A stretch of DNA of 64,000 bases from assembly GCA_964405335.1 (NCBI GenBank), contig CAYONP010000005.1, positions 9,202 to 73,201 on the forward strand, in the 5' to 3' direction. A program made the translations under genes and the position numbers. Every line of letters starts with the position of its first letter. Position 1 is the first letter of the stretch. Shown piece by piece: positions 5,449 through 57,203 of this stretch. Source of the DNA: an uncultured Fimbriimonadaceae bacterium (GTDB lineage Bacteria; Armatimonadota; UBA10988). A model generated the notes under the pieces. The model was not told the DNA's origin and did not search any database. It saw nothing but the letters and a program-made list of their open reading frames with translations.

Positions 5449-5450
5449 GG

Positions 5451-6362: not shown

Positions 6363-6427
6363 CGCCGTCTCCTTCCGCCGCCGTCCCGCCGCTCTGCCTT
6401 GGCCACCGCGCCGCGCGATCCTCCCCG

Positions 6428-12072: not shown

Positions 12073-12863
12073 CGCTCGAGCTGCCGGCCGTTCTTGCCCT
12101 CACGGATCGCGGCCACGAAGTCGAGCAGCTCGACGAGTTCGGCCGGCGGCGACGGCTCGGCGCGGAGCTGCTCGAGCATCTGGCCGCGGTGACCGTGCGA
12201 GAGGTAGAGCAGCCGAATCGCGCGCTGCAGCGCCGCGCGGGCCTCGCTCGTCACCCCGTTCCGCCGCAGACCGACGACGTTGATCCCGCGGACCTTGTTC
12301 GGGTTGCCTTCGGCCAGCGCGAACGGCGGCACGTCGGTGTTGACCCCCGCCAGACCGCTGACCATCGCCATGCGGCCGATGCTCACCTTCTGGTGCACCG
12401 CGGTCATGCCACCGATGACCACCCGATCGCCCAGGTGGCAGTGGCCGCCGATGGTGACCAGATTGGCCAGCATCACGTGGTCGCCGACCTGGCAGTCGTG
12501 GCCGAGGTGGACAAAGCCCATGAGCAGGCAGCCCGACCCGACGCGGGTCACGCCGCCCTCGTGGTTCGAGCGGTGGACGGTCACATTCTCGCGGATCGAG
12601 TTGTCATCGCCAAGTTCGAGGAAGGTCTCGTCGGTGGTGCACTTGAGGTCCTGCGCCGCGCCGCCGAGGATGGCGCCGGTGTCGACGGTGCAGCGGGCGC
12701 CCAGCGTGACCCGGCCGTGGATGGTCGCCCGCGGGCCGATGACGCAGTCGTCACCCAGCCGCGCGCCGGCAAAGACGAGGGCGTAGGCTCCGATGCGGCA
12801 CCGTTCGCCCAGCTCGGCGCCCGGCTCGACGACGGCGGTCGGATGGATCTCGGTCATCGGCAA
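12069..12863 (-). CDS. lpxA: acyl-ACP--UDP-N-acetylglucosamine O-acyltransferase
   Basis: Left-handed beta-helix hexapeptide repeats throughout plus the LpxA C-terminal helical domain (…NKVRGINVVGLRRNG…). ATGA overlap with msbA. Confidence 0.85.
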   Translation of the reverse strand: MPMTEIHPTAVVEPGAELGERCRIGAYALVFAGARLGDDCVIGPRATIHGRVTLGARCTVDTGAILGGAAQDLKCTTDETFLELGDDNSIRENVTVHRSNHEGGVTRVGSGCLLMGFVHLGHDCQVGDHVMLANLVTIGGHCHLGDRVVIGGMTAVHQKVSIGRMAMVSGLAGVNTDVPPFALAEGNPNKVRGINVVGLRRNGVTSEARAALQRAIRLLYLSHGHRGQMLEQLRAEPSPPAELVELLDFVAAIREGKNGRQLER

Positions 12864-12867
12864 CCTG

Positions 12868-13386
12868 CTACTCGCCGTCGGGCCGGATCAGCGCGAACGA
12901 ACCCGTCGCCTTGGCGACCAGCTCACCCTCGACAAAGGCCGACATCTGCGCCCGGCAGTTCAGCGCGCCGCGGAAGAAGCGTGACCGTTCGAGCGTTGCC
13001 TCGAGCCGCAACAGGTCGCCGGGCACCACCGGGCGGCGGAACTTCGCGTCGTCGATGCCGGTGAACAGCGTCAGCCAGTCGCCCGGCGCCACGGCCGACA
13101 TGACCGTCATGCCCGAGACCTGCGCCAGCGCCTCGATGATCAGCACCCCGGGCATCACCGGCCGGCCCGGAAAGTGGCCGGCGAAGAACGGCTCGTTGAC
13201 CGTTACGGCTTTGACCCCCACGGCGCGGGCCGCCGGCTCTAGCTCGATGATTCGGTCGACCATCAGCATCGGCGGCCGGTGCGGCAACAGCCGGCAGATC
13301 CCGGCGACATCCAGCACCCGCCCGGCGTAATGCGCGGCGACGGCTGGATCGGGGTAGAGAAACGTGCGCTCCTCGACTGCCGACAT
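12868..13386 (-). CDS. fabZ: 3-hydroxyacyl-ACP dehydratase
   Basis: LLPHRPPMLMVDRIIELEP…VNEPFFAGHFPGRPVMPGVLIIEALAQ is the FabZ hot-dog signature. I chose the internal Met (MSAVEERTF…) as the start because the upstream 143 aa of the ORF are Arg-rich junk. Confidence 0.8.
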   Translation of the reverse strand: MSAVEERTFLYPDPAVAAHYAGRVLDVAGICRLLPHRPPMLMVDRIIELEPAARAVGVKAVTVNEPFFAGHFPGRPVMPGVLIIEALAQVSGMTVMSAVAPGDWLTLFTGIDDAKFRRPVVPGDLLRLEATLERSRFFRGALNCRAQMSAFVEGELVAKATGSFALIRPDGE

Positions 13387-18472: not shown

Positions 18473-18504
18473 GTCACCACGCTCCCGGACGATCTGGATG
18501 GCGC

Positions 18505-23748: not shown

Positions 23749-23864
23749 GGCCTCTCCCCGGGGCGGCGCTCCCCTCGACGCCCGACGCGCCACCCATACA
23801 AGGAGTATAGCCCCAAGGGCGAAGCAACGGTAACGGCTGCACCCGTCGTGGGTCGGAGTCCCTC

Positions 23865-34858: not shown

Positions 34859-34887
34859 CGGAAGGTGGATGCGCGAGGAGGTAGATC

Positions 34888-35340
34888 ATGAAGCGCATGA
34901 TTTGGACGCTGGCGGCGGCGCTGATGACCGTCGCGGCGGTGCACGCGCAGGCCGCTGATCCGGCGCCGGACACCTGTCCGCTGTGTGGCCGGGTCGGGCC
35001 GGTCGGTCCGGTGTGGCAGAGCCAGGCTCAGGCCGACCTGCGCCAGGCGGTGCGCGAGGCCAACTGGGAGTTGTACCGGCTGATGAACACCGAGCCGGTC
35101 GACGAGGCGGCGGTGGCCGCGCAGCAGGCGCGGGTCGACGAGCTGCGCCAGGAGATGTGGGCCCAGCGCGACCTGGAGCGGCAGCAGATGCAGCAGACGC
35201 GGCCGGGCCAGGGCTTCGGCCGGGGCAACGGGCCGTTCGGTCAGGGCCGTGGCCAGGGCTTCGGACGCGGCTACGGCCGCGGCGGCGGGCAGCGGGCGGG
35301 CTGGGGCCGCGGCTTCGGTCGTGGGCCGAATGCCTGGTGA
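34888..35340 (+). CDS. periplasmic Spy/CpxP/ZraP-family chaperone-like protein with CxxC motif and FGRG-repeat tail
   Basis: Signal peptide MKRMIWTLAAALMTVAAVHAQA. Helical core (LRQAVREANWELYRLMNTEPVDEAAVAAQQARVDELRQEMWAQRDLERQQMQQ), as in Spy/ZraP. CPLCG after the signal peptide. Tail GFGRGNGPFGQGRGQGFGRGYGRGGG. Confidence 0.55.
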   Translation: MKRMIWTLAAALMTVAAVHAQAADPAPDTCPLCGRVGPVGPVWQSQAQADLRQAVREANWELYRLMNTEPVDEAAVAAQQARVDELRQEMWAQRDLERQQMQQTRPGQGFGRGNGPFGQGRGQGFGRGYGRGGGQRAGWGRGFGRGPNAW

Positions 35341-35352
35341 ACTGAGGCGCGC

Positions 35353-35907
35353 ATGGGCGCTGGGGCATGGTCGAATGGTGCGGGCGGGCTCGTCGAGCGC
35401 GCCCGCACCGGCGACCGCGGCGCCCAGCAAGCGCTGTTCGAGGTCTGGCAGATGCCTGTCTACAACTACCTCAAGCAGATGACCCGCGACCCCGACGCGG
35501 CCGCCGACCTGACCCAGGAGACCTTCGTCCGGGCGCTGGGCAACCTGCGCCGCTTACGTCACGACGGCGCGTTCCGGTCGTGGCTGTTTCAGATCGCGCA
35601 CAACCTGGTCAAGGACCGCGCCGCGGCGCCGCTGGTCGAGCTGGATGAGGATCCGCCCGAGACCGCCGATCCGGCCGCCGGGCCAGAAACGAGCCTCGAG
35701 CGCGACGAGCTGAAGAGCGCCGTCGATCGGGCGGTGGCCGGGCTCTCGGCCGAGCATCGCGAGGTAGTGCTGCTGCACCACCTGCGCGGCCTAGAAGTCG
35801 ACGAAATCGCGCACAGCCTGCGCCTGCCGGCCGGCACGGTGAAGTCGCGGCTGGCGCGGGCGCGGGGCATCCTGCGGCGGCGCCTGGCGCCGTATGTGGA
35901 GGGCTGA
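35353..35907 (+). CDS. RNA polymerase ECF-type sigma factor (sigma-70 region 2 + region 4)
   Basis: Region 2 LFEVWQMPVYNYLKQMTRDPDAAADLTQETFVRA…FRSWLFQIAHNLVKD. Region 4 REVVLLHHLRGLEVDEIAHSLRLPAGTVKSRLARA. Confidence 0.85.
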   Translation: MGAGAWSNGAGGLVERARTGDRGAQQALFEVWQMPVYNYLKQMTRDPDAAADLTQETFVRALGNLRRLRHDGAFRSWLFQIAHNLVKDRAAAPLVELDEDPPETADPAAGPETSLERDELKSAVDRAVAGLSAEHREVVLLHHLRGLEVDEIAHSLRLPAGTVKSRLARARGILRRRLAPYVEG

Positions 35908-35908
35908 C

Positions 35909-36328
35909 ATGGACTGCGACAAGCTGCGCCAACGGCTGCCCGAGCTGATCGAGGGCTGCCTCAAGCAGCGCGACCGGCTGGCGCTCGAGCAGCACCTCGG
36001 GTCGTGCCCCGAGTGCCAGGCCGAGCTGGCCTGCCTGCGCCGGGTCGCCTCGCTGTTCGAGACCCTCTGCGACGAGCCGCCGCCGGCGGGTCTGTGGGAC
36101 CAGGTCTCGGCCCGGCTGCCGGTCGCCGCGCCGCGGCGGCTGCCGCGCCTGGCCCTGGCCGGCGCGCTCGCAGCCGGGCTGATTGGCCTGGCGCTGCTGC
36201 GCCCGCCGGAGCCCGAGCCGGCGACGCCATTCCTGCGCGACCACTACCGCGCCACCTCGCTGGTCGCCCTGGGCAACCCGGCGGTCAGCGACGTGATGGC
36301 CTATGTGGTGACGGAGCCCGGGCAATGA
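35909..36328 (+). CDS. anti-sigma factor, zf-HC2 type, single TM
   Basis: MDCDKLRQRLPELIEGCL…HLGSCPECQAE (H-x3-C-x2-C zinc motif) and one TM (LALAGALAAGLIGLALL). It lies immediately after the ECF sigma. I chose the Met 2 nt after the sigma stop, with GGAGGG RBS. Confidence 0.65.
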   Translation: MDCDKLRQRLPELIEGCLKQRDRLALEQHLGSCPECQAELACLRRVASLFETLCDEPPPAGLWDQVSARLPVAAPRRLPRLALAGALAAGLIGLALLRPPEPEPATPFLRDHYRATSLVALGNPAVSDVMAYVVTEPGQ

Positions 36329-47250: not shown

Positions 47251-48195
47251 ATGGCGTTGCGGCTCGGGCCGGGGGAGCCTTCGATTGCGCGCGGGGCGGC
47301 GTTGCGCGAGGCGCCGCGAGTCAGCGTGGTCATCCCCACCTTCACCCACACCTGGCTCGACGACTGCCTCGACAGCATCCGCGCGCAGACCTTCGATAAC
47401 TGGGAGATCGTGCTCGTCGACGACGGCTCGCCCGAACCGGCCGCGCCGAGTCGGTCCGACGACCTGACCCTCGTCCGGCAGGAGAACACCCGACCCGGCG
47501 GGGCGCGGAACCGCGGCGTCTCGCTCGCCCGCGGTGAGTGGATTGCCTTCCTCGACAGCGACGACCGCTGGCGGCCCGAAAAGCTCGAGCGCCAGCTCGC
47601 CTTCCACGAGGCGCATCCGCGCTGCCTGCTATCGACCACCGAAACCTGCTACCTGACGCCCGACGGGCTGGTCGAGAAGGAGTCGCTGCAGCGTTCGCGG
47701 CTGACCCCCGGCATCGTGCCCTACGGCGAGCTGTTCTACGAGAACTTCATCGCCTGCAGCGCGGCGATGGTGCAGCGCGAGGCCTATCTCGCCGTCGGCG
47801 GCATGGCCGTCGGCCGCTGGTGCGAAGAGGTCGACGCCTGGCTCCGGGTGGGCCTGCTGGGCGAGGTCGGTTACCTCGGCGACATCCTGGTCGAGCGGCG
47901 GCATCACGCGGCGAGTTGGACCCGCGTGACCTCGACCGACGGCAAGCTGCTGGCCGACGAGGAGAGCTGCTACGAGGAGTTCTTCGCCGAGCACCCCGAG
48001 CAGAGGGCCAAACCGTATGCGCGGCGGGCGATGTCGCGGCTGCGCCTGCACCGCTGCTTCGCCCACCTGCGCGCGGGCGACCGCGCCGCGGCGCGGCGGG
48101 CGAGCCTCGAGGCGATCCGCTTCGATCCCACGCACCGCCGCGCCTGGGCCGCCTGGTGGAAGTCTATTCGGCCGCGACCGCCGGCCCGTTCATAA
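47251..48195 (+). CDS. family 2 glycosyltransferase (GT-A fold)
   Basis: Start at internal Met MALRLG… The upstream 121 aa are junk. VSVVIPTFTHTWLDDCLDSIRAQTF…EIVLVDDGS…FLDSDD (DxD) are classic GT2. Confidence 0.7.
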   Translation: MALRLGPGEPSIARGAALREAPRVSVVIPTFTHTWLDDCLDSIRAQTFDNWEIVLVDDGSPEPAAPSRSDDLTLVRQENTRPGGARNRGVSLARGEWIAFLDSDDRWRPEKLERQLAFHEAHPRCLLSTTETCYLTPDGLVEKESLQRSRLTPGIVPYGELFYENFIACSAAMVQREAYLAVGGMAVGRWCEEVDAWLRVGLLGEVGYLGDILVERRHHAASWTRVTSTDGKLLADEESCYEEFFAEHPEQRAKPYARRAMSRLRLHRCFAHLRAGDRAAARRASLEAIRFDPTHRRAWAAWWKSIRPRPPARS

Positions 48196-49531
48196 CCGGT
48201 GGCGGGTACATCTGCCCGGTGCTGCCGTTGAGCCAGGCGACCAGATAGCTGCGCGGCGCGGTGGGTGACCAGGCGTTCATGTGCCGCGCCGGGCCGATGT
48301 GGTTGCCCGCGACGGCGGTGTTGCGGGCCACCGGCTCGGTCTCGAAGAAGATCGCCAGCCGCCGGCGGTTGACCAGCTCGTGCAGGTTCTTCCCGGCCAG
48401 CTCGGCGTTGATGGCGAAGGTGATCTGACCCTCCTCGACCTCGACACCCGGTGTGACCAGCAGCTCGCCGCCGTCGGCCGCGCGCGGCTCGAGCAGCGGC
48501 TCGAGCTCGTCGCACCAGGTCGCCGCCTCGGGCAACAGGCCGTCGTTCTGCTCGGCATACTTGAGCAGCGCGGCGACCAGCGCGGCGAGCCGCGATTGGG
48601 TCGCCTCGAGCCGGTCGTTGGCCGCCCAGACATCCTCATAGCTCATGCCGCCGGGGATCTGGAACGTGTTCTCGGCGGTGGTGGCAACCACGTTGACGTC
48701 GCCGTAGCGCGGTTCCATGGCCGCCAGTTCGTCGGGGAAGAAGATCTGGTTGGGCTCGTTGCCGCCCACGTCGGCGAGCAGGACGGTGCGCTGCCGGACC
48801 TGCCAATCGTCGCCCGGGCCCTGTTCGGCCAACTCGGCGTTCATCGCGAAGCTGTAGGTCTCGTCGGGCTTGATGGGTGAGCCGAACGGCCGCTCGCCCT
48901 CGACATAGGGCCGGATCGCGTCGCACCACTCGTCGGGCTCGGGGTAGACGCCGTCGTGCTCCTCGGCGTAGGCGTTGAGCGCGCTGGCCAAGGTCCTGAG
49001 CTGGTTCTCGACCTCGTACGGCGCCATGCGGCCCTCGACCATGGCCGCCTGCTCGGGCATGTTGGCCATCATCTCGGCCTGGCGGATCATCATGCTCCGC
49101 CCCTCGCCGACGGTGGCGTTGAGACTGGCGCGGAGATCGACTCGCCAGGTGCCGTCGTCCTGCCGGGCGAGGATGAGCACCAGCGGGCGAGCCAACTGGA
49201 AGCTGAGTTCGAGCCGTCCGTCGGCGGCCGTCGCCTCGCCGAGTTCGATCGGCGCATCCGGCGTGGTCGGCAGGATGGCCAGCTCGGTCATCACATCCCA
49301 CGGGTTCATGCCGCCCGCGGCCTCGGCGCTGAACTGGCCGCGCATCATGCGCACCATGTTCAAGATGGGCGGGTCGTTGGCGAGGAGCGGCAGCGCGGCG
49401 TCCAGGTCGCCCGCGCGGACCGCGGCGAGGTAGGCCTGCGCGACGGCGTTCTGGTCGGTCAGGTCGACCGCCGGCCGCTCGCCGGCGCGCAGCGGCAGCG
49501 CGAGGATGATGAGCAGGGCGAGCTTCGGCAT
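48164..49531 (-). CDS. secreted hypothetical protein with two pseudopilin-core-like repeats
   Basis: Start at internal Met MPKLALLIILALPLRAGE (signal peptide, GGAG RBS). The upstream 79 aa are junk. Internal repeats LRTLASALNAYAEEHDGVYPEPDEWCDAIRPY and LAALVAALLKYAEQNDGLLPEAATWCDELEPL. The start coordinate is derived from the ORF-table frame. Confidence 0.5.
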   Translation of the reverse strand: MPKLALLIILALPLRAGERPAVDLTDQNAVAQAYLAAVRAGDLDAALPLLANDPPILNMVRMMRGQFSAEAAGGMNPWDVMTELAILPTTPDAPIELGEATAADGRLELSFQLARPLVLILARQDDGTWRVDLRASLNATVGEGRSMMIRQAEMMANMPEQAAMVEGRMAPYEVENQLRTLASALNAYAEEHDGVYPEPDEWCDAIRPYVEGERPFGSPIKPDETYSFAMNAELAEQGPGDDWQVRQRTVLLADVGGNEPNQIFFPDELAAMEPRYGDVNVVATTAENTFQIPGGMSYEDVWAANDRLEATQSRLAALVAALLKYAEQNDGLLPEAATWCDELEPLLEPRAADGGELLVTPGVEVEEGQITFAINAELAGKNLHELVNRRRLAIFFETEPVARNTAVAGNHIGPARHMNAWSPTAPRSYLVAWLNGSTGQMYPPPVMNGPAVAAE

Positions 49532-49643
49532 GGGGCGCTCCTGAGCAGTAACAGCCTGGTGCAACGGCGGCACCTGCAGCAACCGGCCTGGCGCGGCGAG
49601 GTTCACATCGCCTGCGCCCGGCCGCCGGTTCCCGCGGAAGGAC

Positions 49644-50384
49644 TTGGCGCCGCCGGGTGGTAGCCACGCTCGACGGGAGGTGCGCTTGGCCCGGCTGTTC
49701 GACTGGTTCTTGCGCGGCGGACCGCTGATGTGGCTGCTGCTGGCCGCCTCCATCGCGGCGGTGGCCACCGCGGTCGAGCGCTGGCTCTGCTACCGCGCCG
49801 CCCTGCGCCGGCCTGAGGCGCTGCCGGCCGCCCTGCTCCGCGGCTGGCACAGCGCCGGTGCCGCCGGTCTCGCCGGCGCCGCGCAGCCGCACGGCAGCGC
49901 CGCGGTGGCCCTGGCGCGGACCGCCGCCGAAGTGGCCGAGCTCGACGCCGACCTGGCCGCCGACCGGCTGAGCTGCACGGCGGAGGCTCAGCTTGCGCGG
50001 CTGGCCGGCCCGCTGCGGTTGCTCGAGGCGATCTGCGTCGGCGGGCCGTTGCTCGGTCTGCTGGGCACGGTGATCGGCTGGTCGGGCGTGCTCGAGGCCG
50101 CCGCACGGCGGGGCTCGGCCGAGCTGAGCGCCATCGGCGGCGATATGTCGCGGGCGCTGATCACCACCGTCTTCGGCCTCATGGTCGGCCTCGAGGCGTG
50201 GCTGCTGGGGCAGATTCTGCAGGCCCGCTACGAGCGGCTCAAGGTGCCGATCCAGGCGCTGGTGCCGAGGCTCCTGACCATCCTGCGCGGGCAGGGCGAG
50301 GCACCGCCCGAGCCACCACCAGCCACCGAGCCGGCGCCGCCGGAGCCCGAGCCGCAGCCCGAGCCGGCAGAGGAGTACACATGA
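49644..50384 (+). CDS. exbB: MotA/TolQ/ExbB-family proton channel
   Basis: LFDWFLRGGPLMWLLLAASIAAVATAVERWL, then GPLLGLLGTVIGW and GGDMSRALITTVFGLMVGL, the canonical ExbB/TolQ helices. A TTG start at 49689 with GGGAGG RBS 5 nt upstream is an alternative. Confidence 0.7.
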   Translation: MAPPGGSHARREVRLARLFDWFLRGGPLMWLLLAASIAAVATAVERWLCYRAALRRPEALPAALLRGWHSAGAAGLAGAAQPHGSAAVALARTAAEVAELDADLAADRLSCTAEAQLARLAGPLRLLEAICVGGPLLGLLGTVIGWSGVLEAAARRGSAELSAIGGDMSRALITTVFGLMVGLEAWLLGQILQARYERLKVPIQALVPRLLTILRGQGEAPPEPPPATEPAPPEPEPQPEPAEEYT

Positions 50385-50767
50385 GGCGCGCCGGCCTGGC
50401 CGCGGTGCTGGTCGCGACGGCCGATCTGGCGCTGCTCGGCTCGCTCTTCGCCATGGCCACCGCCGTCGCCGCCGAGCAGGCCGGCAGCGAGGTCTTCCTC
50501 GCCGCGCCCGAGGCGGCCGAGGCCGGCCTGCCGCCACGGGCGGTGATTGTCGACGTTGCCGCCGACCGTAGCTACCGGCTCGGCCCGCAACGCCTGCCGC
50601 GGGCGGCGCTGGCGCAGGCGATCCGCGCGCCGCTGGCCGGCCTGCCCGAGCCGATAGTCGCCGTCCGGCCGGCGCCGGGCGCCGACTGGGACGACATCGC
50701 CCACCTGCTCCGTGTCGCGCGTGAGGCCGGCGCGACCCGCGTCGAACTGCTCGGATCGGCGCCGTGA
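50381..50767 (+). CDS. exbD: ExbD/TolR-family biopolymer transport protein
   Basis: ATGA overlap with exbB. Single TM MRRAGLAAVLVATADLALLGSLFAMATAVAA then a periplasmic domain (VIVDVAADRSYRLG…IVAVRPAPGADWDDIAHLLRVAREAG). Confidence 0.6.
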   Translation: MRRAGLAAVLVATADLALLGSLFAMATAVAAEQAGSEVFLAAPEAAEAGLPPRAVIVDVAADRSYRLGPQRLPRAALAQAIRAPLAGLPEPIVAVRPAPGADWDDIAHLLRVAREAGATRVELLGSAP

Positions 50768-51459
50768 GCCGCGCCGGCGGCTGGCTGGCGGTCCCTGCCG
50801 CCCTCGCCCTCCATGCGGCGGCGCTGGCCTTTGTACGGCTGCCGGCGCCGCAAGATCCGGTCCTTTACCGCGCGGTGCCGGTCACCGGTCCGCGGCTGAC
50901 CTTCTGGCCGACGGCACCACGGTTTGTCCCGGCCGATGTGACCGTCCCGCCGTCGCCGCCGGCCGAGCGGCGGATTGAGATCCAGCGTCGGCGCGAGATC
51001 CACCCGGCGCCGCCGCGGCCGCCACAGCCGCCCGTCATGCGCGAGCCACTACTGCCGCCGCTCTGGCGCGGCGAGTGGGAGCTGGCCCCACCACTGCCAC
51101 CGCTGCTGGCCGCGCTGGCCGCTGCCGAGCAGGCGCCGCGAGCGACCGTCGATGGCGTGGCGCTCGGTCTGCCGGCGAGCGCCGATGACGAGGCGGCGAT
51201 GCTGGTCGACCCGCCGGCGGTGCTGGCCGGCCTGGGCGATGCGCCGCCGGAGACGGGCGAGTGGCGTTGGTTGCCGGCGGACGTGTCGCTCTCGCCCGGG
51301 GTGGCGGCCTGGCTGGCCGAGAGCGGCTCGCAGGTGTGGCGCGGCGAGCGCGACGGCGAGTCGGTGCTCTATCTCCCGCTGGCGGCGCGAGCGGGTTGGG
51401 AGGCTCGACGGCCGGAGTCGCTGGCGCTGTGGCAGAGTCTGGTGAGGAGTGCCCGATGA
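50764..51459 (+). CDS. TonB-like protein (N-terminal TM, Pro-rich spacer), tentative
   Basis: GTGA overlap with exbD. The TM (WLAVPAALALHAAALAF) precedes a Pro-rich spacer (PPSPPAERR…PAPPRPPQPPVMREPLLPPLW). The C-terminal domain is diverged. Confidence 0.4.
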   Translation: MSRAGGWLAVPAALALHAAALAFVRLPAPQDPVLYRAVPVTGPRLTFWPTAPRFVPADVTVPPSPPAERRIEIQRRREIHPAPPRPPQPPVMREPLLPPLWRGEWELAPPLPPLLAALAAAEQAPRATVDGVALGLPASADDEAAMLVDPPAVLAGLGDAPPETGEWRWLPADVSLSPGVAAWLAESGSQVWRGERDGESVLYLPLAARAGWEARRPESLALWQSLVRSAR

Positions 51460-51767
51460 TTGTGGTAGCGAACCGGATCCCGGTGGCCGAGGGCCATGAG
51501 CAGGCGTTCGAGGAGCGGTTCCGCCGGCGGGCCGGGATGATCGACGAGAGCCCTGGGTTCATCCGCAACCTGGTGTTGCGGCCCGAGCAGGGCGACTGCT
51601 ACGTGGTGATGACCTTCTGGGCCGATGAGGCGAGCTTCCGCGCCTGGTGCGACAGCGACTCGTTCCGCGCCGCCCATGCCGACCGGCCGCCGAAGGAGAT
51701 GTTCCGCGGCCCGAGCCAGCTTGAGATTCTGAGCGTGGTGACGGATACTGGTGACAGAGGGGAATAG
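51456..51767 (+). CDS. antibiotic-biosynthesis-monooxygenase (ABM) domain protein, HmoA/IsdG-like
   Basis: ATGA overlap with the upstream gene. MIVVANRIPVAEGHEQAFEERFRRRAGMIDESPGFIRNLVLRP…YVVMTFWADEASFRAWCDSDSFRAAH matches the ABM ferredoxin-like fold. Confidence 0.65.
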   Translation: MIVVANRIPVAEGHEQAFEERFRRRAGMIDESPGFIRNLVLRPEQGDCYVVMTFWADEASFRAWCDSDSFRAAHADRPPKEMFRGPSQLEILSVVTDTGDRGE

Positions 51768-51843
51768 ACCGAGCATGGATCCGTTGGCGGCCGGGCGGCG
51801 TCTGATGATCGGAGCCGGTCACCGCGGGCCGGTGGAGTCTTGG

Positions 51844-52953
51844 ATGCGTCGCAGTTTGGCAGGGATGTTGGCCTTGCTCGCCATGTCAGCCGCGCCGGCG
51901 GCGGCACAGCTCGTCGAGGGCCGCGACTTCTTGATGGTCCCGCCGGCCGACACCTGGGCCGCCGAGCGCTGGCCGGTGGTGGTCGCGCTGGCTGGGCCCG
52001 AGCACGAGTTGCAGGCGGTGGCCGACCAGTTCAAGCCGCTGACGGTCATGCGCGGCGCGCTGCTGGTGGTGCTCTCGATGACCGACAACGACACCGCCCG
52101 GCTGCAGCAGGTGGTCAACCACGCGTTTCGCACGCATCCGGCGCAGCCGAACTCGACGGTGCTCGTCGGCGAGGGGCCGATGGCGCTGTTCTGCCGCGAC
52201 GAGACACTCCGCCGGCGCGAGGACGTGGCCGGCTTCATCGGCATCAACACGCCGATGGCGATGACCCCCGTCGCCGCGCCGGGCCCGCCGCAGAAGGCGG
52301 TGCTGCTGGTCAGCGACGCGACCTACCGCGACACCGGCATCCGGCTGCGCGACGAGCTGCGCCGCCAGGGCCTGCAGGCGGCCACGCGCGAGGTGCCGGC
52401 GGCCGAGCTGATGTATCACGTGTCGACCGCGCTGACCCAGATTCTGCCCCCCACCCCACCGCGCTTCCGGCTGCATGATGTGCTGACCGACAGCTACCTG
52501 ACCGCGCTGCCTGGCTGGCAGTTCGACCGTGCCGACGGAATGCTCGCCATCGCCCGGCCGGTCAACGCGACGACCGGTCCGGTGGTGCAAATCTTCAGCG
52601 GCACGCTGGGCGAGCAGACGTTCGAAGGCTACATGCAGGAAGCGCGCCAGTTCTTGGCCCAGGACGAGATCGAGATCCTCAACGAGGAGACGCTCAACGA
52701 GGCCCAGGACGGCACCACCGCGTTGGCCTTCCACTTCGTCGATCGACGCGCCGAAATCGAGTACGCCGTCTACTGGATCCAGGTCGGCCACGACCGGCGC
52801 CTGGTCTCGTTCCGCTCGATGGCCAAGCAGGGCGAACTCGAACCGTACCTGCCGCTGGTTCGCCAGCTCGCGCTGGCCACCACCTTCGACAAGCCGCCCG
52901 AGGGACCGGTGGTCGAGCCTGGTGCTCAGGCCCGGCCGCACGAGCCGGAGTAG
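51844..52953 (+). CDS. secreted hypothetical protein, possibly alpha/beta-hydrolase-like N-terminal domain
   Basis: Signal peptide MRRSLAGMLALLAMSAAPAAAQ. Alternative starts exist at 51751 and 51775. WPVVVALAGPEHE…LLVVLSMTD resembles an esterase core. Weak. Confidence 0.4.
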   Translation: MRRSLAGMLALLAMSAAPAAAQLVEGRDFLMVPPADTWAAERWPVVVALAGPEHELQAVADQFKPLTVMRGALLVVLSMTDNDTARLQQVVNHAFRTHPAQPNSTVLVGEGPMALFCRDETLRRREDVAGFIGINTPMAMTPVAAPGPPQKAVLLVSDATYRDTGIRLRDELRRQGLQAATREVPAAELMYHVSTALTQILPPTPPRFRLHDVLTDSYLTALPGWQFDRADGMLAIARPVNATTGPVVQIFSGTLGEQTFEGYMQEARQFLAQDEIEILNEETLNEAQDGTTALAFHFVDRRAEIEYAVYWIQVGHDRRLVSFRSMAKQGELEPYLPLVRQLALATTFDKPPEGPVVEPGAQARPHEPE

Positions 52954-53990
52954 GCTTCAAGCACTCGGCGGTAGACCGCCACCGTCGCCTCGGCCATGCC
53001 CGGCCACGTCCGCTGCTGCGCCCGCGCCAGGCCCTGGATCATGCGTCTCCGCCGAACCGCCTCGTCAGTGACCAGCGCCGCCAGCGCCGCGACCTGAGCA
53101 GCAGCGTCGCCGAGCGTCACCGCCGGACCGCCGATCTCGGCCAGGAGCGCGTCGGCCGGTCCGACCGCCGGTGTGCCGCAGGCCATCGACTCGAGCAGCG
53201 CCAGCGCGGTCGGCTCGCCCGACGCGCCGAGAATGATCGCCCGCGCCGCGCTGAGCACCGCCGGGCCGAGCTGCGACTCGAGCTCGCGAATCGCCCGGAT
53301 GCCGGCCGGCGCGTCGCCCTCGATGACCAGCTCCAGGTCGAGCCCATGCTCTTTGCGCGCCCGCTCCCAGACCGCCGTCACGGCCTCGGCGCCACCGGCC
53401 CTCGCGCGGCCGAGGACGAACCGCTCGGGTAGCTCGACCAGCCGCAGCGCCGCCGTCTGCACCGACTCGCACTGCGGGCGGTAGGCCGGCTCGACCCCGT
53501 AGGGGGTGACGACCACTTCATTGACACCCAGGCGATCGCGCAGCTCGGCCGCGGTCGTCTCGGAACAGGTGATCACCGCCGCGGCGCGACCGATCTGCCT
53601 CGGCAGCAGGTGCCGCCAGGCCCAGGCGACGGTGCGCGGGTAGGCCTCCGGGCGATCGATCGGCCCCAGGTGTCGCAGGGTGGTGACCACGGGAATCGGC
53701 GAGGCGACCGGCAGCGTGCCCTGGACGTGGAGCAGCCGGCAGCCGGCGCGCTGGGCCGCCGGCGCCAGGGCGCTCGGCTTCCACAGCGATGGGTGGGCGC
53801 GGAGCTGTGAGACGGCTATCTGGTCGGAGCGTGGGATCAGCTCGACCGCGGGCTCGCGGTCGACGAACAGGTGAAAGCCGAACTCGGGTTTGAGGTAGGC
53901 CAGGGCATGGACCAGGTGGAGGGTGTAGGCGTGGGCGTCACTCCCCGGGTCGCACAGCGGGCGGGCGTCGATGCCGATGGTCACGGGCAT
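52926..53990 (-). CDS. family 4 glycosyltransferase (GT-B)
   Basis: The C-terminal half contains E-x7-E-like LESMACGTPAV. The N-terminal half carries the GT-B acceptor domain. It overlaps the convergent upstream gene end by 28 nt. Confidence 0.7.
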   Translation of the reverse strand: MPVTIGIDARPLCDPGSDAHAYTLHLVHALAYLKPEFGFHLFVDREPAVELIPRSDQIAVSQLRAHPSLWKPSALAPAAQRAGCRLLHVQGTLPVASPIPVVTTLRHLGPIDRPEAYPRTVAWAWRHLLPRQIGRAAAVITCSETTAAELRDRLGVNEVVVTPYGVEPAYRPQCESVQTAALRLVELPERFVLGRARAGGAEAVTAVWERARKEHGLDLELVIEGDAPAGIRAIRELESQLGPAVLSAARAIILGASGEPTALALLESMACGTPAVGPADALLAEIGGPAVTLGDAAAQVAALAALVTDEAVRRRRMIQGLARAQQRTWPGMAEATVAVYRRVLEAYSGSCGRA

Positions 53991-53993
53991 ACG

Positions 53994-55112
53994 TCACTCA
54001 GGCACCTCGACAGTATACACGTGACTCCAGCCCCCGCCGTTGTCGCTGGTGTAGATCACCCGCCGCCCGTCCGGGCTGAAGCTGGGGTGCGGGTGCGTCC
54101 ACTGCGGGCCGTAAACCCCCTCCGGCATCGCCGGCGTTGGGGCTGGGTCGCTCGCCGGGTCGTCGCCGCGGATGATGCTGGTGTCGATGCCCGCGCCGGC
54201 CGCCGGCACGGTCAGCGCCCACTGCCTGCCCTGCGCGCTGGCGTTCGGCTGGCAGAGCCGCCGCGCCGCGCCGGTGATCGGGTCGAGCAGAAACAGCCCG
54301 CGGCTCGGGCGCGCCGTGTCGCAGACAATCGACCGGCCGTCGCGCCGGCCGCAGGCGTGCCAGGCGGCGAACTCGGCCACCGTGCGGACGGCGCCCGAGT
54401 CGGGATCGATCGCCCGCAGCGCCCGCGGCCAGTGGGTGAAGATCACCTCGTCGCCGGCGCCAAGCCACGATTCGTGGACAATCCACTCGTCCGTCGTCTG
54501 CTCATAGAGCGGCCGCAGGCCGGATCCGTCGGCCCGCACCAGCCACATCCGTTGCGTCGGCGGGCCGCTGAACAGCAGTGTCTCCGGGTCGCACGGCCGG
54601 AACTGCAGGTGGCCGACCTCGTCGCAGCGGAGCACGGCGTCGGCGCCCGAGCCGTCGCAGCAGACGAGGGCCAGCTCGCCGTAGCCGTCGTAGCGGCAGC
54701 CGACGGCGATCCGCCGGCCGGCCGGATCGAGACTGCAGTTGCCCAGCCGCGCGCCGGCGAAGCGGGCCAGCGGCGCCACCTCGAGCGTCTCGGCATCAAT
54801 CCGCAGCACCTGTTCGCCGGCGGTGGCATAGAGCGCGCTGCCGTCGGGCGCGACGGCGGGCGAGAAGGGGTTCAGGTCGACCCGCGCGGTGACCTGCATC
54901 AGCGCGCCGTCAGCCTCGTCGCAGGCCAACAGGTTGGGGTAGCCGTCGCGGTAGCAGATCAGGTAGAACCGCCCGCCGGCGGCCGGCCACGAGCTGTTGG
55001 TGAAGTAAAGCTGATGATGCATCGCCGGCGCGGCGGTCCAGCGAGTCACCCGCGCGCCGGTGGCCACGTCGCGGAAGGTCCGGCGCTCAGGACGCAGGCG
55101 CACGCCGATCAC
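53994..55112 (-). CDS. oligogalacturonide-lyase-like / TolB-type beta-propeller protein
   Basis: N-terminus RTFRDVATGARVTRWTAAPAMHHQLYFTNSSW parallels the Ogl N-terminus (TFDTYQDAATGVKVTRLT…YFY). C-terminus HPHPSFSPDGRRVIYTSD is the Ogl/TolB propeller motif. The GTG start overlaps the TGA of the upstream gene (GTGA). A start at 55103 is an alternative. Confidence 0.55.
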   Translation of the reverse strand: MIGVRLRPERRTFRDVATGARVTRWTAAPAMHHQLYFTNSSWPAAGGRFYLICYRDGYPNLLACDEADGALMQVTARVDLNPFSPAVAPDGSALYATAGEQVLRIDAETLEVAPLARFAGARLGNCSLDPAGRRIAVGCRYDGYGELALVCCDGSGADAVLRCDEVGHLQFRPCDPETLLFSGPPTQRMWLVRADGSGLRPLYEQTTDEWIVHESWLGAGDEVIFTHWPRALRAIDPDSGAVRTVAEFAAWHACGRRDGRSIVCDTARPSRGLFLLDPITGAARRLCQPNASAQGRQWALTVPAAGAGIDTSIIRGDDPASDPAPTPAMPEGVYGPQWTHPHPSFSPDGRRVIYTSDNGGGWSHVYTVEVPE

Positions 55113-55951
55113 GCCGCGCCCCGCAAGCACTCGAAGGCGTGGCGAGCGCTGGCGGCCCAGGTCTCGGTCAGCGGCCGAGTCGGCGCGTCGTCGGGAAAGG
55201 CCGGCTCGAACACCGCCGCACCGTCGAACCCGGCGGCGAGCAGCGCCGCACCAATCTTCGCCTGGTCGTCGATGCCCTCGTCGAGCCCCTCGCTCCACTC
55301 CTGAGCCGCGCGCCGGTTGCGCAGGTGGCAGAGCGTGATCCGGTCGCCCCAGCGGCGGATCACCTCGAGCGGGTCGCCGCCGCCCCAGGCGAGCCAGGCC
55401 AGGTCGGGGCCGAAGGCCAGCTCGTCGGGCTGCAGGCGCGACAGCGTCTCGCGCACCTCGCAGTAGTCGTCGGCCGCGTCGGGCGCGTAGGTGTGCAGGT
55501 TGGGTGTAATGCCGTGCCGGCGGGCCATCCGGGCCACCGCGCGCAGCGTCTCGGCCTGGGCGTCCCAGTCCGCGGCGGTCTTGGCCCGGCCGGTCGGCGG
55601 CGGCACGCACGAGAGGCCGAGGTGCCGGCCGCCGAGCGGCGCCATCTGCCGACAGATGTGCTCGAGGTAGTCGACCTGCTGCTCGCGCTGGGCCGGGTCC
55701 CAGAAGGGCGCGTTGTGGCTGGCGCCGAGCAACTCGATTGGCCCCGTGCGCAGCGCCTGGCGGTGCAGCGCCACCGCCTCGTCGGTCTCGAGCAGGTTGG
55801 CCATGCTCTCGAAGCCCTCGAAGCCGGCCTGGGCCACGTCGCGGACAATCGTGCCGAGCCGGCGCAGCACCGCCTCGCAGGCCACGGCGAGGCTCGGCGT
55901 CTCGCGCAGCTCGAGCTGAACATAGACCCAGGGATGGAAACCAACCACCAT
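55109..55951 (-). CDS. sugar phosphate isomerase/epimerase (xylose-isomerase-like TIM barrel)
   Basis: Start at internal Met MVVGFHPWVYVQ with GGAGAGG RBS. AQAGFEGFESM and the metal-binding His/Asp/Glu pattern. The upstream 69 aa are junk. Confidence 0.65.
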   Translation of the reverse strand: MVVGFHPWVYVQLELRETPSLAVACEAVLRRLGTIVRDVAQAGFEGFESMANLLETDEAVALHRQALRTGPIELLGASHNAPFWDPAQREQQVDYLEHICRQMAPLGGRHLGLSCVPPPTGRAKTAADWDAQAETLRAVARMARRHGITPNLHTYAPDAADDYCEVRETLSRLQPDELAFGPDLAWLAWGGGDPLEVIRRWGDRITLCHLRNRRAAQEWSEGLDEGIDDQAKIGAALLAAGFDGAAVFEPAFPDDAPTRPLTETWAASARHAFECLRGAA

Positions 55952-56051
55952 GCCGCCTCTCCGCCCGCCGATTCGCGGCCCGACGGCGCGGCCCTTCCGC
56001 AGGGGCAGCCGGCCGCCTGCCGAACGACCGGGCATGCCGCCGGAGGCGACC

Positions 56052-57203
56052 ATGAACATCGACGCCCTGTGCGCACGGGTCGACGCCGACCGACTCGGCG
56101 ACCTGACCCACGAGCTGGTCGGCATCCCCAGCCCGACCGGCCGTGCGCGCCGCTGCACCGAGCATTACGCCGCGCTGCTGGCCGATCTCGGCTGCGAGGT
56201 GAGCCTCGAGGCGGGCGGTTACCCCGATCATCCCAGCGCCGTGGCCCGGCTGCACGGCGGCGACGGGCCGGTGATCCAGTTCAACGCCCACACCGACACG
56301 GTGCCGCTCGATCATCCGCCGGCCGAGCGGCTGAGCGACCGCGTGGTCGGTCGCGGCGCGGCCGACATGAAGGGCGCGCTGGCGATCATGGCCGAGCTGG
56401 CCCGCCTGCTGGCGCCGCTCCGCGCGGCGCTGCCGGGCAGCCTGCTCTTGACCGCGCACGACCTGCACGAGGCGCCGGGCGGGCTGGGCGAGACCATCAC
56501 CGACCTCTGCCGCCGGGGCATCCACGGCGACCTGGCCGTGGTCTGTGAGGGCGGCACGACCGATGTCGGGATCGTCGGCCGCGGCATGGGCATCTTCGAG
56601 CTGACCGTCCGCCGCGACGGCGAGCCGGCGCACGAGGTGACCGGCGCGCCGAACCCGGTCCACGGCGCGGCGGCCGTGGCCGCTGCTCTGCTGGCCCGGC
56701 GCGACGCGATGGCCGCCCGGCCCGAGCCCTACGTCGGCGCCGAGACCATCTTCCTCGGCCAGCTCCACGCCGGCACGTTCTACAACCAGATCCCGCGCGA
56801 GGCGTTCCTCAACGGCACCTGGCGGTTCAGCCCGGCCAAGACCTTCGACCAGGCCGAGCGCGAGCTGGCCGAGCTGCTCGCCGCGGTCGAGTTGCCCGAC
56901 GGCCTGCGCCTCGACCGCCACTTCTTCCAGGTCCGGCCGAGCTACTCGCTGTCACCCGATGAACCACTGGTGACCGCGCTGCAGGCGGCCTATCAGGCCG
57001 AGCACGGCCGCCCTCTGCCGCTGGCCGGCGCGCGGGTGGTCTGCGACGTCCCGGTGCTCATCCGCGAGGCCGGCATCCCCTGCGTCGGCCACGGCCCGGT
57101 CGGTCACGGCGCGCACGGCGAGCCGGAGTGGGTAGCCATCGCCAGCCTGACGGCCACGGCGCGGGTCTATCTGCGGTTGATCGAGGCGTTGTGGCGCGGT
57201 TGA
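56052..57203 (+). CDS. M20-family metallopeptidase / deacylase (ArgE/DapE/ACY1-like)
   Basis: Start at Met MNIDALCARV with GGAGG RBS. HTDTVP…GRGAADMKG…EGGTTDVG…GHG are M20 metal-binding blocks. Confidence 0.75.
   Translation: MNIDALCARVDADRLGDLTHELVGIPSPTGRARRCTEHYAALLADLGCEVSLEAGGYPDHPSAVARLHGGDGPVIQFNAHTDTVPLDHPPAERLSDRVVGRGAADMKGALAIMAELARLLAPLRAALPGSLLLTAHDLHEAPGGLGETITDLCRRGIHGDLAVVCEGGTTDVGIVGRGMGIFELTVRRDGEPAHEVTGAPNPVHGAAAVAAALLARRDAMAARPEPYVGAETIFLGQLHAGTFYNQIPREAFLNGTWRFSPAKTFDQAERELAELLAAVELPDGLRLDRHFFQVRPSYSLSPDEPLVTALQAAYQAEHGRPLPLAGARVVCDVPVLIREAGIPCVGHGPVGHGAHGEPEWVAIASLTATARVYLRLIEALWRG

What the first reader, a model, noticed from the sequence alone, without database searches (positions are those of the whole stretch)
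49644..51767. ExbB-ExbD-TonB-like-ABM monooxygenase string, every junction a 4-nt start/stop overlap
There are four genes with ATGA, GTGA and ATGA overlaps, so they are tightly translationally coupled. The fourth is an IsdG/HmoA-like ABM monooxygenase (heme-degrading type) rather than the usual TonB-dependent receptor or TolA/TolB/Pal. No TBDT gene is adjacent. A Ton-type energiser hard-linked to a cytoplasmic ABM enzyme suggests an uptake-plus-degradation unit (heme or another tetrapyrrole, or an aromatic compound) whose outer-membrane partner is elsewhere or non-canonical.
Basis: partly seen in the sequence, partly recalled or inferred. Interest (0 to 1): 0.55.

Follow-up and report, generated by a model that had tools for sequence, protein, structure and literature searches.

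The report
Ton/Tol-like motor module with heme-oxygenase-like gene
A small, lineage-restricted (probably Armatimonadota) gene cluster joins a proton-driven ExbB/ExbD membrane motor to a TonB-shaped protein with an unrecognised end domain, an IsdG-type (heme-degrading-like) enzyme and a secreted inactive-esterase/PsbP-fold protein; it looks like a new variant of the Ton/Tol force-transducing systems, not a proven heme-uptake unit.

Summary
Four co-directional genes are joined by ATGA, GTGA and ATGA start/stop overlaps. Gene 1 is MotA/ExbB/TolQ, gene 2 ExbD/TolR, gene 4 an ABM protein. Gene 1 more likely starts at TTG 49686 than at 49644.

- Gene 3 has TonB/TolA architecture: a membrane helix with an invariant His, a Pro-rich linker and a roughly 120-aa C-terminal domain. 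It has no TonB_C or TolA_C domain by any test. Only two close relatives were found among 5.8 billion proteins.
- The ABM protein sits with the heme-degrading IsdG/MhuD/HmoB group and keeps the Asn/Trp/His triad. It scores below every NCBIfam equivalog cut-off. Its closest solved relative, Thermus TT1380, is uncharacterised.
It encodes a secreted protein with a catalytically dead alpha/beta-hydrolase domain and a PsbP-fold domain, and it travels with the module.
- The string recurs in about ten metagenomic loci, two of them labelled Armatimonadota. One relative has gene 3 directly followed by gene 5, with no ABM.
- ABM homologues at 61% identity or less are not next to ExbBD.
- I found no TBDT, heme ABC transporter, Fur-box-like site or riboswitch.

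Best reading: a Ton/Tol-like force-transduction module with a new transducer and periplasmic partner, and an accessory IsdG-like enzyme.

The parts
49686..50384 (+). Three hydrophobic helices and a Pro/Glu-rich C-terminal tail.
   Evidence: PF01618 E 1.4e-17. The best NCBIfam match is TolQ at 38.9 bits, far below its cut-off. Three TM segments. GTV and T161, equivalent to E. coli TolQ T145/T178, are invariant. Start evidence.
50381..50767 (+). Gene 2: ExbD/TolR-family subunit (128 aa), one membrane helix carrying Asp15. ATGA overlap with gene 1.
   Evidence: PF02472 at 31.8 bits against a cut-off of 25.4. One TM segment.
50764..51459 (+). Gene 3: TonB/TolA-shaped protein (231 aa). Layout: TM helix 6-26 with invariant His17; a short beta-strand-like motif around residues 44-48; a basic helix R..EI.RRR.IH (67-80); a Pro-rich linker (29-41% Pro); and a roughly 120-aa alpha/beta C-terminal domain with an invariant AGW.A motif. 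GTGA overlap with gene 2.
51456..51767 (+). Gene 4: cytoplasmic ABM-domain protein (103 aa) of the IsdG/MhuD/HmoB group, TT1380-like. ATGA overlap with gene 3.
   Evidence: PF03992 E 1.2e-21. HmuQ model 62.6 bits against a cut-off of 130. PDB matches: 1IUJ E 3e-29, HmoB and MhuD 1e-13 to 1e-15, SnoaB 1e-5. N6/W64/H74 are invariant in 11 sequences and align with IsdG N7/W67/H77. No hydrophobic segment.
51721..51749 (+). Sigma-70-like promoter match (TTGAGA-17-GATACT) inside the 3' end of gene 4, 95 nt before the gene 5 start.
   Evidence: 1 site found against 0.0 +/- 0.2 in shuffles. This is a consensus match only; function is not shown.
51844..52953 (+). Gene 5 (not in the finding): secreted 369-aa protein. 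It has a signal peptide, an alpha/beta-hydrolase-fold domain without a catalytic triad (about residues 29-200), and a PsbP-fold domain (about 209-346) that carries nearly all the invariant polar residues.

Best explanation
This is a lineage-restricted envelope module, probably from Armatimonadota, an LPS-containing diderm. It works like a Ton/Tol system.

- Genes 1 and 2 form a proton-driven ExbB/ExbD-type inner-membrane motor. This is shown by family membership and by the conserved proton-path Asp and Thr residues.
- Gene 3 is its force transducer (inferred). A single membrane helix with an invariant His docks on the motor as TonB and TolA do. A Pro-rich linker spans the periplasm. A C-terminal domain that is not the TonB/TolA domain engages a different target.
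- Gene 5 is the most likely target or partner (inferred from synteny only). It is a secreted protein made of a dead esterase fold and a PsbP-fold binding domain.
- Gene 4 is a cytoplasmic IsdG-family protein translationally coupled to gene 3. It probably binds or degrades heme or a related tetrapyrrole (inferred from the conserved Asn/Trp/His triad). It is an accessory member of the operon, comparable to the cytoplasmic thioesterase YbgC in tol-pal operons, and is not evidence that the motor imports heme.
For: Motor. PF01618 and PF02472 score above their gathering thresholds. The ExbD Asp and the TolQ-type Thr residues are invariant. TM topology is 3+1+1.

Transducer.
- His17 in the TM helix is invariant in 7 full-length homologues, and Ser sits four residues before it in 4 of them, as in the SHLS motif.
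- hhalign places His17 on TonB His20.
- The linker is 29-41% Pro.
- A conserved alternating-hydrophobic motif lies about 27 residues after the His, where TonB has its D-box/motor box (framework from PMC12204202).
- That paper describes motor-adjacent TonB-shaped proteins with a non-TonB (vWA) C-terminal domain, so the pattern has precedent.

Partner. Gene 5 follows the module in every relative with enough sequence. It follows gene 3 directly in L019. It has a signal peptide and a high-confidence two-domain model.

Diderm host. LpxK, LpxA and an MsbA-like ABC exporter are in the window.

ABM as accessory. It is absent from L019. ABM homologues at 61% identity or less sit in unrelated contexts.

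Taxon. L009 is a Fimbriimonadaceae MAG, and the L025 contig is named Armatimonadota_UBA10988.
Against: - No interaction was tested. Motor-transducer docking and gene 3-gene 5 contact are inferred from architecture and synteny.
- The gene 3 structure model is weak (pLDDT 61, three near-identical sequences). 'Novel C-terminal fold' therefore rests mainly on negative sequence searches.
- The hhalign match of the TM helix is not significant (probability 0.65%).
- Gene 5 is separated from gene 4 by 76 nt and may have its own promoter.
- A distant gene 5 homologue (30% identity) occurs without any ExbBD.
- The 4-nt coupling of the ABM gene to gene 3 is kept in most relatives. This argues that the ABM protein is more than a passenger.
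- Only 64 kb of the genome is visible, so a canonical TonB, TBDTs or Tol-Pal elsewhere cannot be excluded.
Confidence: 0.5

Rival explanations
1. Heme (or other tetrapyrrole) uptake-plus-degradation unit. The motor and gene 3 energise import through an outer-membrane partner encoded elsewhere. Gene 5 may act as a periplasmic or surface binding protein. The ABM enzyme degrades the imported heme in the cytoplasm.
For: - The ABM protein keeps the IsdG catalytic triad and is nearest to proven heme degraders: HmoB, MhuD and IsdI/G (triad roles from PMC6018153).
- It is translationally coupled to gene 3 in most relatives.
- An IsdG-like heme degrader is known in a Gram-negative: B. japonicum HmuQ (cited in PMC6449446). 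That hmuQ lies among heme-transport genes is my recollection of Puri & O'Brian 2006, which I could not open.
- Gene 5 has an invariant Tyr263 in its conserved domain. Tyr is a common heme ligand in binding proteins (my knowledge), but this is not a test.
Against: - Gene 3 has no TonB_C.
- There is no TBDT, no periplasmic-binding-protein/ABC importer, and no HemS or ChaN-type gene in the window or in any relative's flanks.
- There is no Fur-box-like site (best 10 of 19 matches) and no riboswitch.
- The ABM scores below every heme-oxygenase equivalog cut-off.
- L019 keeps gene 3 and gene 5 but has no ABM between them.
- Close ABM homologues in other phyla sit in housekeeping contexts.
Confidence: 0.2
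2. Divergent Tol-Pal-like envelope-maintenance or division system. Genes 1-3 act as TolQ/TolR/TolA analogues and gene 5 takes the place of the periplasmic TolB. The ABM gene is a cytoplasmic operon companion, like ybgC.
For: - The best NCBIfam match of gene 1 is TolQ.
- The gene order (motor, motor, transducer, periplasmic protein) mirrors tolQ-tolR-tolA-tolB.
- The host makes LPS.
- The flanks are rich in glycosyltransferases and an initiating sugar transferase.
- PMC12204202 reports that Pro-rich TolA proteins are common outside Gammaproteobacteria.
Against: - The TolQ score of 38.9 bits is far below the cut-off of 221.
- There is no TolA_C-like domain.
- Gene 5 is not a beta-propeller.
- No Pal/OmpA-like lipoprotein or CpoB is in the locus or in relatives.
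- The gene 5 family is tiny, at 18 clusters. That is unlike an essential, widely conserved envelope system.
Confidence: 0.15
3. Motor-assisted export or surface display of the secreted proteins encoded downstream: gene 5, and in some relatives a secreted GH123_N-like glycoside hydrolase. This would be by analogy with TonB-dependent secretion. The ABM protein would be unrelated to it.
For: Gene 5 has a signal peptide. In L006-L008, L021 and L025 a large GH123_N-like protein is joined to gene 5 by a 4-nt overlap, and the L007 copy carries a signal peptide.
Against: No outer-membrane channel is encoded in the module. The GH-like gene is absent from the window. The idea rests on gene order alone.
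Confidence: 0.08

Closest known systems
ExbB-ExbD-TonB (Ton system)
   Same: ExbB-family and ExbD-family genes are followed by a bitopic protein with an N-terminal helix bearing a conserved His and a Pro-rich periplasmic linker. The three genes are tightly coupled in one operon.
   Different: The third protein has no TonB_C domain by HMM, profile or fold search. No TonB-dependent transporter is nearby. A dedicated secreted two-domain protein and an ABM enzyme belong to the operon.
TolQ-TolR-TolA-TolB-Pal with the cytoplasmic YbgC
   Same: The order is motor, motor, transducer, periplasmic protein. A small cytoplasmic enzyme is embedded in the same operon. Gene 1 scores slightly better against TolQ than against ExbB.
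   Different: There is no TolA C-terminal domain, no beta-propeller TolB, and no Pal or CpoB. All Tol equivalog scores are far below their cut-offs.
vWA-type motor-driven force transducers (Williams-Jones et al. 2025, PMC12204202)
   Same: A TonB/TolA-shaped protein (TM helix with His, disordered/Pro-rich linker, globular C-terminal domain) is encoded next to tolQR-like motor genes, and its C-terminal domain is not the TonB/TolA fold.
   Different: The C-terminal domain here is a roughly 120-aa alpha/beta domain with no detectable vWA, or any other Pfam, similarity. The companions differ: an ABM protein and a pseudo-esterase/PsbP protein instead of a TPR protein. The lineage also differs (Armatimonadota).
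IsdG-family heme oxygenases (IsdG/IsdI, MhuD, HmoA/HmoB, HmuQ); closest solved structure TT1380 (1IUJ) of Thermus thermophilus
   Same: ABM ferredoxin-like domain of about 100 aa. The Asn/Trp/His triad lies at the aligned positions. PDB matches are E 3e-29 to TT1380 and 1e-13 to 1e-15 to HmoB and MhuD.
   Different: It scores below the curated cut-off of every heme-oxygenase equivalog model. Its nearest relative, TT1380, has no assigned function. Close homologues occur in many phyla without any heme-uptake context.
Family-wide carboxylesterase/acyl-protein-thioesterase alpha/beta-hydrolases and PsbP/CyanoP/MTC28-fold proteins (for gene 5)
   Different: No nucleophile, acid or His is conserved, so it is not an esterase. 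I know of no described protein with this two-domain combination, and no Pfam or PDB sequence match exists.

Membership tests
MotA/TolQ/ExbB proton channel (PF01618) | HMM score above the Pfam gathering threshold | tested here: met
   64 bits against 22.9.
MotA/TolQ/ExbB proton channel (PF01618) | Three membrane helices and the conserved Thr residues lining the pore (TolQ T145/T178) | tested here: met
   Three hydrophobic segments.
ExbB or TolQ equivalog (NCBIfam) | Score above the curated equivalog cut-off | tested here: not met
   TolQ 38.9 against 221; ExbB 14-24 against 135-206. It is a family member, but is not assignable to either orthologue.
ExbD/TolR (PF02472) | HMM score above the gathering threshold, and the membrane-helix Asp | tested here: met
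   31.8 bits against 25.4. D15 is invariant and aligns with ExbD D25 and TolR D23.
TonB | N-terminal membrane helix with the conserved His of the SHLS motif | tested here: met
   His17 is invariant in 7 homologues. Ser at His-4 is present in 4 of 7, but not in the window protein. hhalign puts His17 on TonB His20, without statistical support.
TonB | Pro-rich periplasm-spanning domain II | tested here: met
   29% Pro in residues 26-66 and 41% in residues 82-113.
TonB | C-terminal TonB_C domain (PF03544) | tested here: not met
TonB | Acts on TonB-box-bearing outer-membrane transporters | not testable with these tools
   No TBDT in the 64-kb window. The rest of the genome is not available.
TolA / Tol-Pal | TolA C-terminal domain and synteny with tolB (beta-propeller) and pal | tested here: not met
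   No TolA-type hit. Gene 5 is alpha/beta-hydrolase plus PsbP fold, not a propeller. No Pal/OmpA-like gene in the locus or in relatives.
IsdG-family heme oxygenase | ABM domain with the Asn/Trp/His triad (IsdG N7, W67, H77) | tested here: met
   PF03992 at 77 bits. N6/W64/H74 are invariant in 11 sequences and aligned to N7/W67/H77. Triad definition from PMC6018153.
IsdG-family heme oxygenase | Score above a curated heme-oxygenase equivalog cut-off (HmuQ, IsdG, IsdI, PRK1331x) | tested here: not met
   Best is HmuQ at 62.6 against 130.
IsdG-family heme oxygenase | Binds and degrades heme | not testable with these tools
   Needs recombinant protein. The nearest solved relative, TT1380 (1IUJ), is annotated as hypothetical.
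Polyketide-type ABM monooxygenases (ActVA-Orf6/SnoaB) | Closer to these than to the heme group | tested here: not met
   SnoaB E 1.7e-5, against HmoB and MhuD at 1e-13 to 1e-15 and TT1380 at 3e-29.
Gram-negative heme-uptake locus (Hmu/Phu/Shu type) | TBDT, periplasmic binding protein, ABC permease/ATPase and iron-responsive control in the locus | tested here: not met
   None of these is in the window or in relatives' flanks. The best Fur-box match upstream is 10 of 19, using the E. coli consensus only, so regulation is inconclusive.
Alpha/beta-hydrolase esterases (gene 5 N-domain) | Fold | tested here: met
Alpha/beta-hydrolase esterases (gene 5 N-domain) | Ser (or Cys) nucleophile, acid and His triad | tested here: not met
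   The elbow residue is Gly, Asp or Ala in 15 homologues. The acid and His positions are not conserved.
PsbP-fold proteins (gene 5 C-domain) | Fold | tested here: met
   Foldseek: 3lyd E 2.5e-7 (TM 0.64 on target), CyanoP 2lnj and 2xb3, plant PsbP, MTC28. No sequence-level match.
Anti-phage defence motors (Zorya and others, PADLOC) | HMM match to a defence-system component | tested here: not met
   No hit for genes 1-5 or the upstream gene.

The most novel reading that the evidence does not exclude
Genes 3 and 5 define a previously undescribed class of PMF-driven periplasmic force transducer and its dedicated target. The transducer has a TonB/TolA-like anchor and linker but a new C-terminal fold. 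The target is a PsbP-fold/pseudo-esterase protein. The class is confined to a branch of Armatimonadota. Its expression is stoichiometrically tied, by translational coupling, to an IsdG-type heme-handling enzyme, which would link an envelope process to heme turnover in a way not seen in Ton or Tol systems.
Probability: 0.3. Interest if true: 0.65.

Novelty: new variant of a known kind. Interest (0 to 1): 0.45.

Why it matters
ExbB/ExbD-type 5:2 motors are now recognised as general power sources for envelope processes. Only a few output modules are known: TonB, TolA, the gliding and T9SS stalks, and the recently proposed vWA transducers. This module offers another candidate output: a transducer whose end domain matches nothing known, paired with a well-modelled secreted partner. 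It comes from Armatimonadota, a phylum with little experimental work. If the ABM protein is truly a heme degrader, its tight coupling to a membrane motor would also be an unusual regulatory or functional link. If the module is simply a divergent Ton system, the finding is ordinary.

Tried and rejected
1. Fused profile (A4). I searched the 5.8-billion-protein index with a fused profile of gene 3 (minus its Pro-rich linker) plus gene 5, hoping to recover both families in one capped search. It returned only the window's own gene 5, because the candidate list was swamped.

3. Locus scans with gene 5 profiles:
- The genome-contig scan found one species representative.
- The 15-sequence profile had no stretch conserved enough to scan with.

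4. The afdb50 fold library was unavailable.

5. Anti-phage defence (Zorya-like MotAB) was rejected: no PADLOC hit.

6. A riboswitch or other known RNA upstream was rejected: no Rfam match at E<=1 in 47500-54500.

7. An intrinsic terminator between genes 4 and 5: none found.

8. Apparent extra conservation of the upstream intergenic region against L001 was checked and dismissed. It is 87.7% identical, the same as the coding DNA.

9. Puri & O'Brian 2006 (the hmuQ context) could not be opened. That precedent is cited second-hand and partly from memory.
Full report
**What is in the sequence**

The window is about 70-76% G+C around the finding. Reading 49400-52000 and listing ORFs gives four co-directional genes whose junctions are exactly as described:
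- ATGA at 50381-50384
- GTGA at 50764-50767
- ATGA at 51456-51459 (junction strings re-printed)

The better start is TTG 49686. It has GGGAGG 6 nt upstream, it is the start called in the closest relative (L001), and the 49644 codon reads TTA in L001. Genes 2 and 4 also have GAGGAG-type Shine-Dalgarno sequences inside the preceding gene.

Four-nucleotide overlaps are common. By my rough count, about a quarter of same-strand junctions in the unrelated flanks of the loci I fetched have them. Three in a row is what a tight operon looks like, not a rarity. The same overlaps recur at the same junctions in relatives, so the arrangement is conserved.

**Family assignment**

Gene 1 is PF01618 MotA_ExbB (E 1.4e-17) and gene 2 is PF02472 ExbD (31.8 bits, cut-off 25.4). 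Gene 4 is PF03992 ABM (E 1.2e-21). Gene 3 matches nothing.

With NCBIfam, gene 1 scores best against TolQ and gene 2 against ExbD, all far below the equivalog cut-offs. The pair therefore belongs to the family but cannot be assigned to Ton or Tol.

The functional residues are present:
- Asp15 in the gene 2 helix is invariant and aligns with ExbD D25 and TolR D23.
- The two pore Thr of TolQ are invariant in gene 1.
- Hydropathy gives 3, 1 and 1 membrane segments for genes 1-3, none for gene 4, and a signal peptide for the next gene.

**Gene 3**

It has the TonB/TolA architecture but not their C-terminal domain.
- Residues 6-26 form a membrane helix with an invariant His17.
- Residues 26-113 are 29-41% Pro, interrupted by a conserved basic helix (R..EI.RRR.IH).
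- Residues 114-231 form an acidic alpha/beta domain with an invariant AGW.A motif.
- A short alternating-hydrophobic motif (LTFW, LVYR, TVYR) lies about 27 residues after the His. This is where TonB carries the D-box/motor box described by Loll 2024 and Zinke 2024, as summarised in PMC12204202. This is an inference from position and pattern only.

TonB_C was looked for in every way available:
- Pfam and NCBIfam on the window protein.
- Pfam at E<=10 on five family members.
- A family profile against all PDB sequences.
- hhalign against E. coli TonB, which aligned only residues 3-22 to TonB 7-25, His on His, at probability 0.65%.

The family is very small. Two close relatives were found among 5.8 billion clustered proteins, plus those I recovered by synteny at 33-35% identity.

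**Gene 4**

It sits with the heme-degrading branch of the ABM superfamily.
- Against solved structures the order is TT1380 of Thermus (1IUJ, E 3e-29), B. subtilis HmoB/YhgC (1e-15), MhuD (1e-13), IsdI/IsdG (1e-5 to 1e-7), then SnoaB (1e-5).
- N6, W64 and H74 are invariant in an 11-sequence alignment spanning several phyla. They align residue-for-residue with IsdG N7, W67 and H77, the catalytic triad (PMC6018153).

Two cautions apply. Every curated heme-oxygenase model scores below its cut-off, the best being HmuQ at 62.6 against 130. The nearest relative, TT1380, has no assigned function.

**A fifth gene**

Downstream, after 76 nt, lies a 369-aa secreted protein (ATG 51844 to 52953) that the finding did not include. 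It follows the module in every relative where enough sequence is present.

It is the best-conserved gene of the set against L001, at 96% aa compared with 78% for gene 3. The family is tiny: 18 representative clusters among 1.84 billion proteins.

With those homologues AlphaFold gave a confident model (pLDDT 89, pTM 0.84).
- The C-terminal domain is a PsbP fold (Foldseek 3lyd E 2.5e-7, CyanoP, PsbP, MTC28). It carries nearly all the invariant polar residues.
- Neither domain has a sequence-level match.

A sigma-70-like hexamer pair lies in the end of gene 4 (51721-51749), so gene 5 may also be transcribed on its own.

**Conservation and distribution**

- The order ExbB-ExbD-gene 3-ABM-gene 5 is found in L001 (gene 3 78% identical), L002-L004, L005 and L015/L016, and L009. 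The flanks differ between these loci.
- L024 shows an ABM C-terminus followed by gene 5.
- In L006-L008 a secreted GH123_N-like protein of 871 aa is inserted between ABM and gene 5, with 4-nt overlaps on both sides. L021 and L025 show the same protein preceding gene 5.
- In L019/L020 the C-terminus of a gene 3 homologue is followed after about 150 nt directly by gene 5. There is no room for an ABM gene.
- A 30%-identical gene 5 homologue (L017/L018) lies in an unrelated context, on a contig that also carries a canonical TonB_C protein next to a TBDT.
- ABM homologues at 61% identity or less are not next to ExbBD. P0013 is beside ETF genes, P0018 overlaps a BamD/YfiO gene in an alphaproteobacterium, and P0024 (an Armatimonadetes MAG) is beside an acetyltransferase.

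The conserved core is therefore motor plus gene 3 plus gene 5. The ABM gene is a frequent but dispensable member within one clade.

The only species representative holding gene 5 is a Fimbriimonadaceae MAG, and one metagenomic contig is labelled Armatimonadota_UBA10988. The window probably comes from that phylum.

**Surroundings**

No predicted ORF in the 64-kb window has a Plug, TonB-dependent-receptor or TonB_C domain. There is no periplasmic-binding-protein/ABC importer typical of heme systems. The same holds for the flanks in relatives.

The window does encode LpxK, LpxA and an MsbA-like exporter, so the host builds an LPS outer membrane. The downstream flank is glycosyltransferases and an initiating sugar transferase.

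Further negatives:
- Upstream of gene 1 there is no Fur-box-like site (best 10 of 19 against the E. coli consensus).
- There is no Rfam match.
- There is no terminator within the string.
- No PADLOC defence model matches.

**How it most likely works**

Shown:
- An ExbB/ExbD-type motor with intact proton-path residues.
- A bitopic, Pro-rich, His-bearing third protein.
- A cytoplasmic IsdG-family protein with the triad.
- A secreted pseudo-esterase/PsbP protein.
- Conserved order and coupling.

Inferred:
- Gene 3 docks on the motor through its helix and transmits force across the periplasm as TonB and TolA do.
- Its unrecognised C-terminal domain addresses a target other than a TonB box.
- Gene 5 is that target or an adaptor.

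Williams-Jones et al. 2025 (PMC12204202) describe the same logic for TonB-shaped proteins with a vWA end domain next to tolQR-like genes. They argue that more such outputs remain to be found. This module fits that pattern with a different end domain and different companions.

The ABM protein probably binds or degrades heme or a related tetrapyrrole. Nothing in the context says the motor imports heme. A cytoplasmic enzyme embedded in a motor operon has a precedent in ybgC of tol-pal (NCBIfam names it 'tol-pal system-associated acyl-CoA thioesterase', seen among the weak hits).

**Verdict**

The thing is best filed as a new variant of the Ton/Tol kind of system: same motor, same transducer layout, different output domain and partners, in a little-studied phylum. 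Interest is moderate (0.45). It would rise if the gene 3 end domain proves to be a new fold that binds gene 5, or if the ABM protein is shown to couple heme turnover to the motor. It would fall if a deeper alignment reveals a hidden TonB_C.

Noticed in passing
window 48164-49531 (- strand): Divergently transcribed secreted protein of about 455 aa, with no Pfam, NCBIfam or PADLOC match. It contains two similar internal motifs (YAEEHDGVYPEPDEWCDAIRPY and YAEQNDGLLPEAATWCDELEPLL). It is conserved next to the module only in the closest relative, L001.
   Followed up: partly
window 7933-9024, 10318-12099, 12069-12887 (- strand): LpxK, an MsbA-like ABC exporter and LpxA: a lipid A cluster, indicating that the host is an LPS-containing diderm.
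   Followed up: partly
window 4492-5487 and 5451-6434 (- strand): Two adjacent PspA/IM30-family genes, followed by a DUF6585 gene and a uracil-DNA glycosylase-superfamily gene.
   Followed up: no
window 14099-19108 and 18505-23862 (- strand): Two giant ORFs of about 1,670 and 1,785 aa. The first has PQQ/BamB-like beta-propeller repeats. The second has right-handed beta-helix, Big_1/invasin and FlgD-Ig domains. They are probably surface proteins. The stop-to-stop ORFs overlap, so the true starts are unclear.
   Followed up: no
window 34885-36328 (+ strand): A small Metal_resist/DUF2076-like protein, an ECF sigma factor and a zf-HC2 anti-sigma factor in a row.
   Followed up: no
window 50300-50381 (gene 1, C-terminal tail): Gene 1 ends in a Pro/Glu-rich tail (APPEPPPATEPAPPEPEPQPEPAEEYT). 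The tail is present only in the window and L001, and is absent from the L002, L005 and L006 homologues.
   Followed up: partly
L013/L014 4237-5004 and 5001-5327: In an alphaproteobacterial MAG, a 57-61%-identical ABM homologue overlaps by 4 nt the end of a BamD/YfiO-like (TPR) outer-membrane-assembly gene. This is another envelope-related coupling of this ABM subfamily.
   Followed up: no
L006-L008 6315-8930; L025 1-2298; L021 1-381: In some relatives a secreted GH123_N-like protein with a concanavalin-like middle region (871 aa in L007) is inserted between the ABM gene and gene 5, with 4-nt overlaps. It has no homologue in the window.
   Followed up: partly
L017/L018 5896-8110 and 9625-12770: A distant gene 5 homologue (30% identity) follows a membrane-anchored alpha/beta-hydrolase-like protein whose gene overlaps grpE. 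Canonical TonB_C and TBDT genes lie 1.5 kb downstream on the same contig.
   Followed up: partly
window 52926-56164 (- strand); L001, L002, L025: The genes downstream of gene 5 on the opposite strand recur in several relatives, so gene 5 has a conserved neighbourhood on both sides. They are a GT4 glycosyltransferase and an AP_endonuc_2/xylose-isomerase-like TIM barrel. In the window and L001 there is also an oligogalacturonate-lyase/PD40-like protein.
   Followed up: partly
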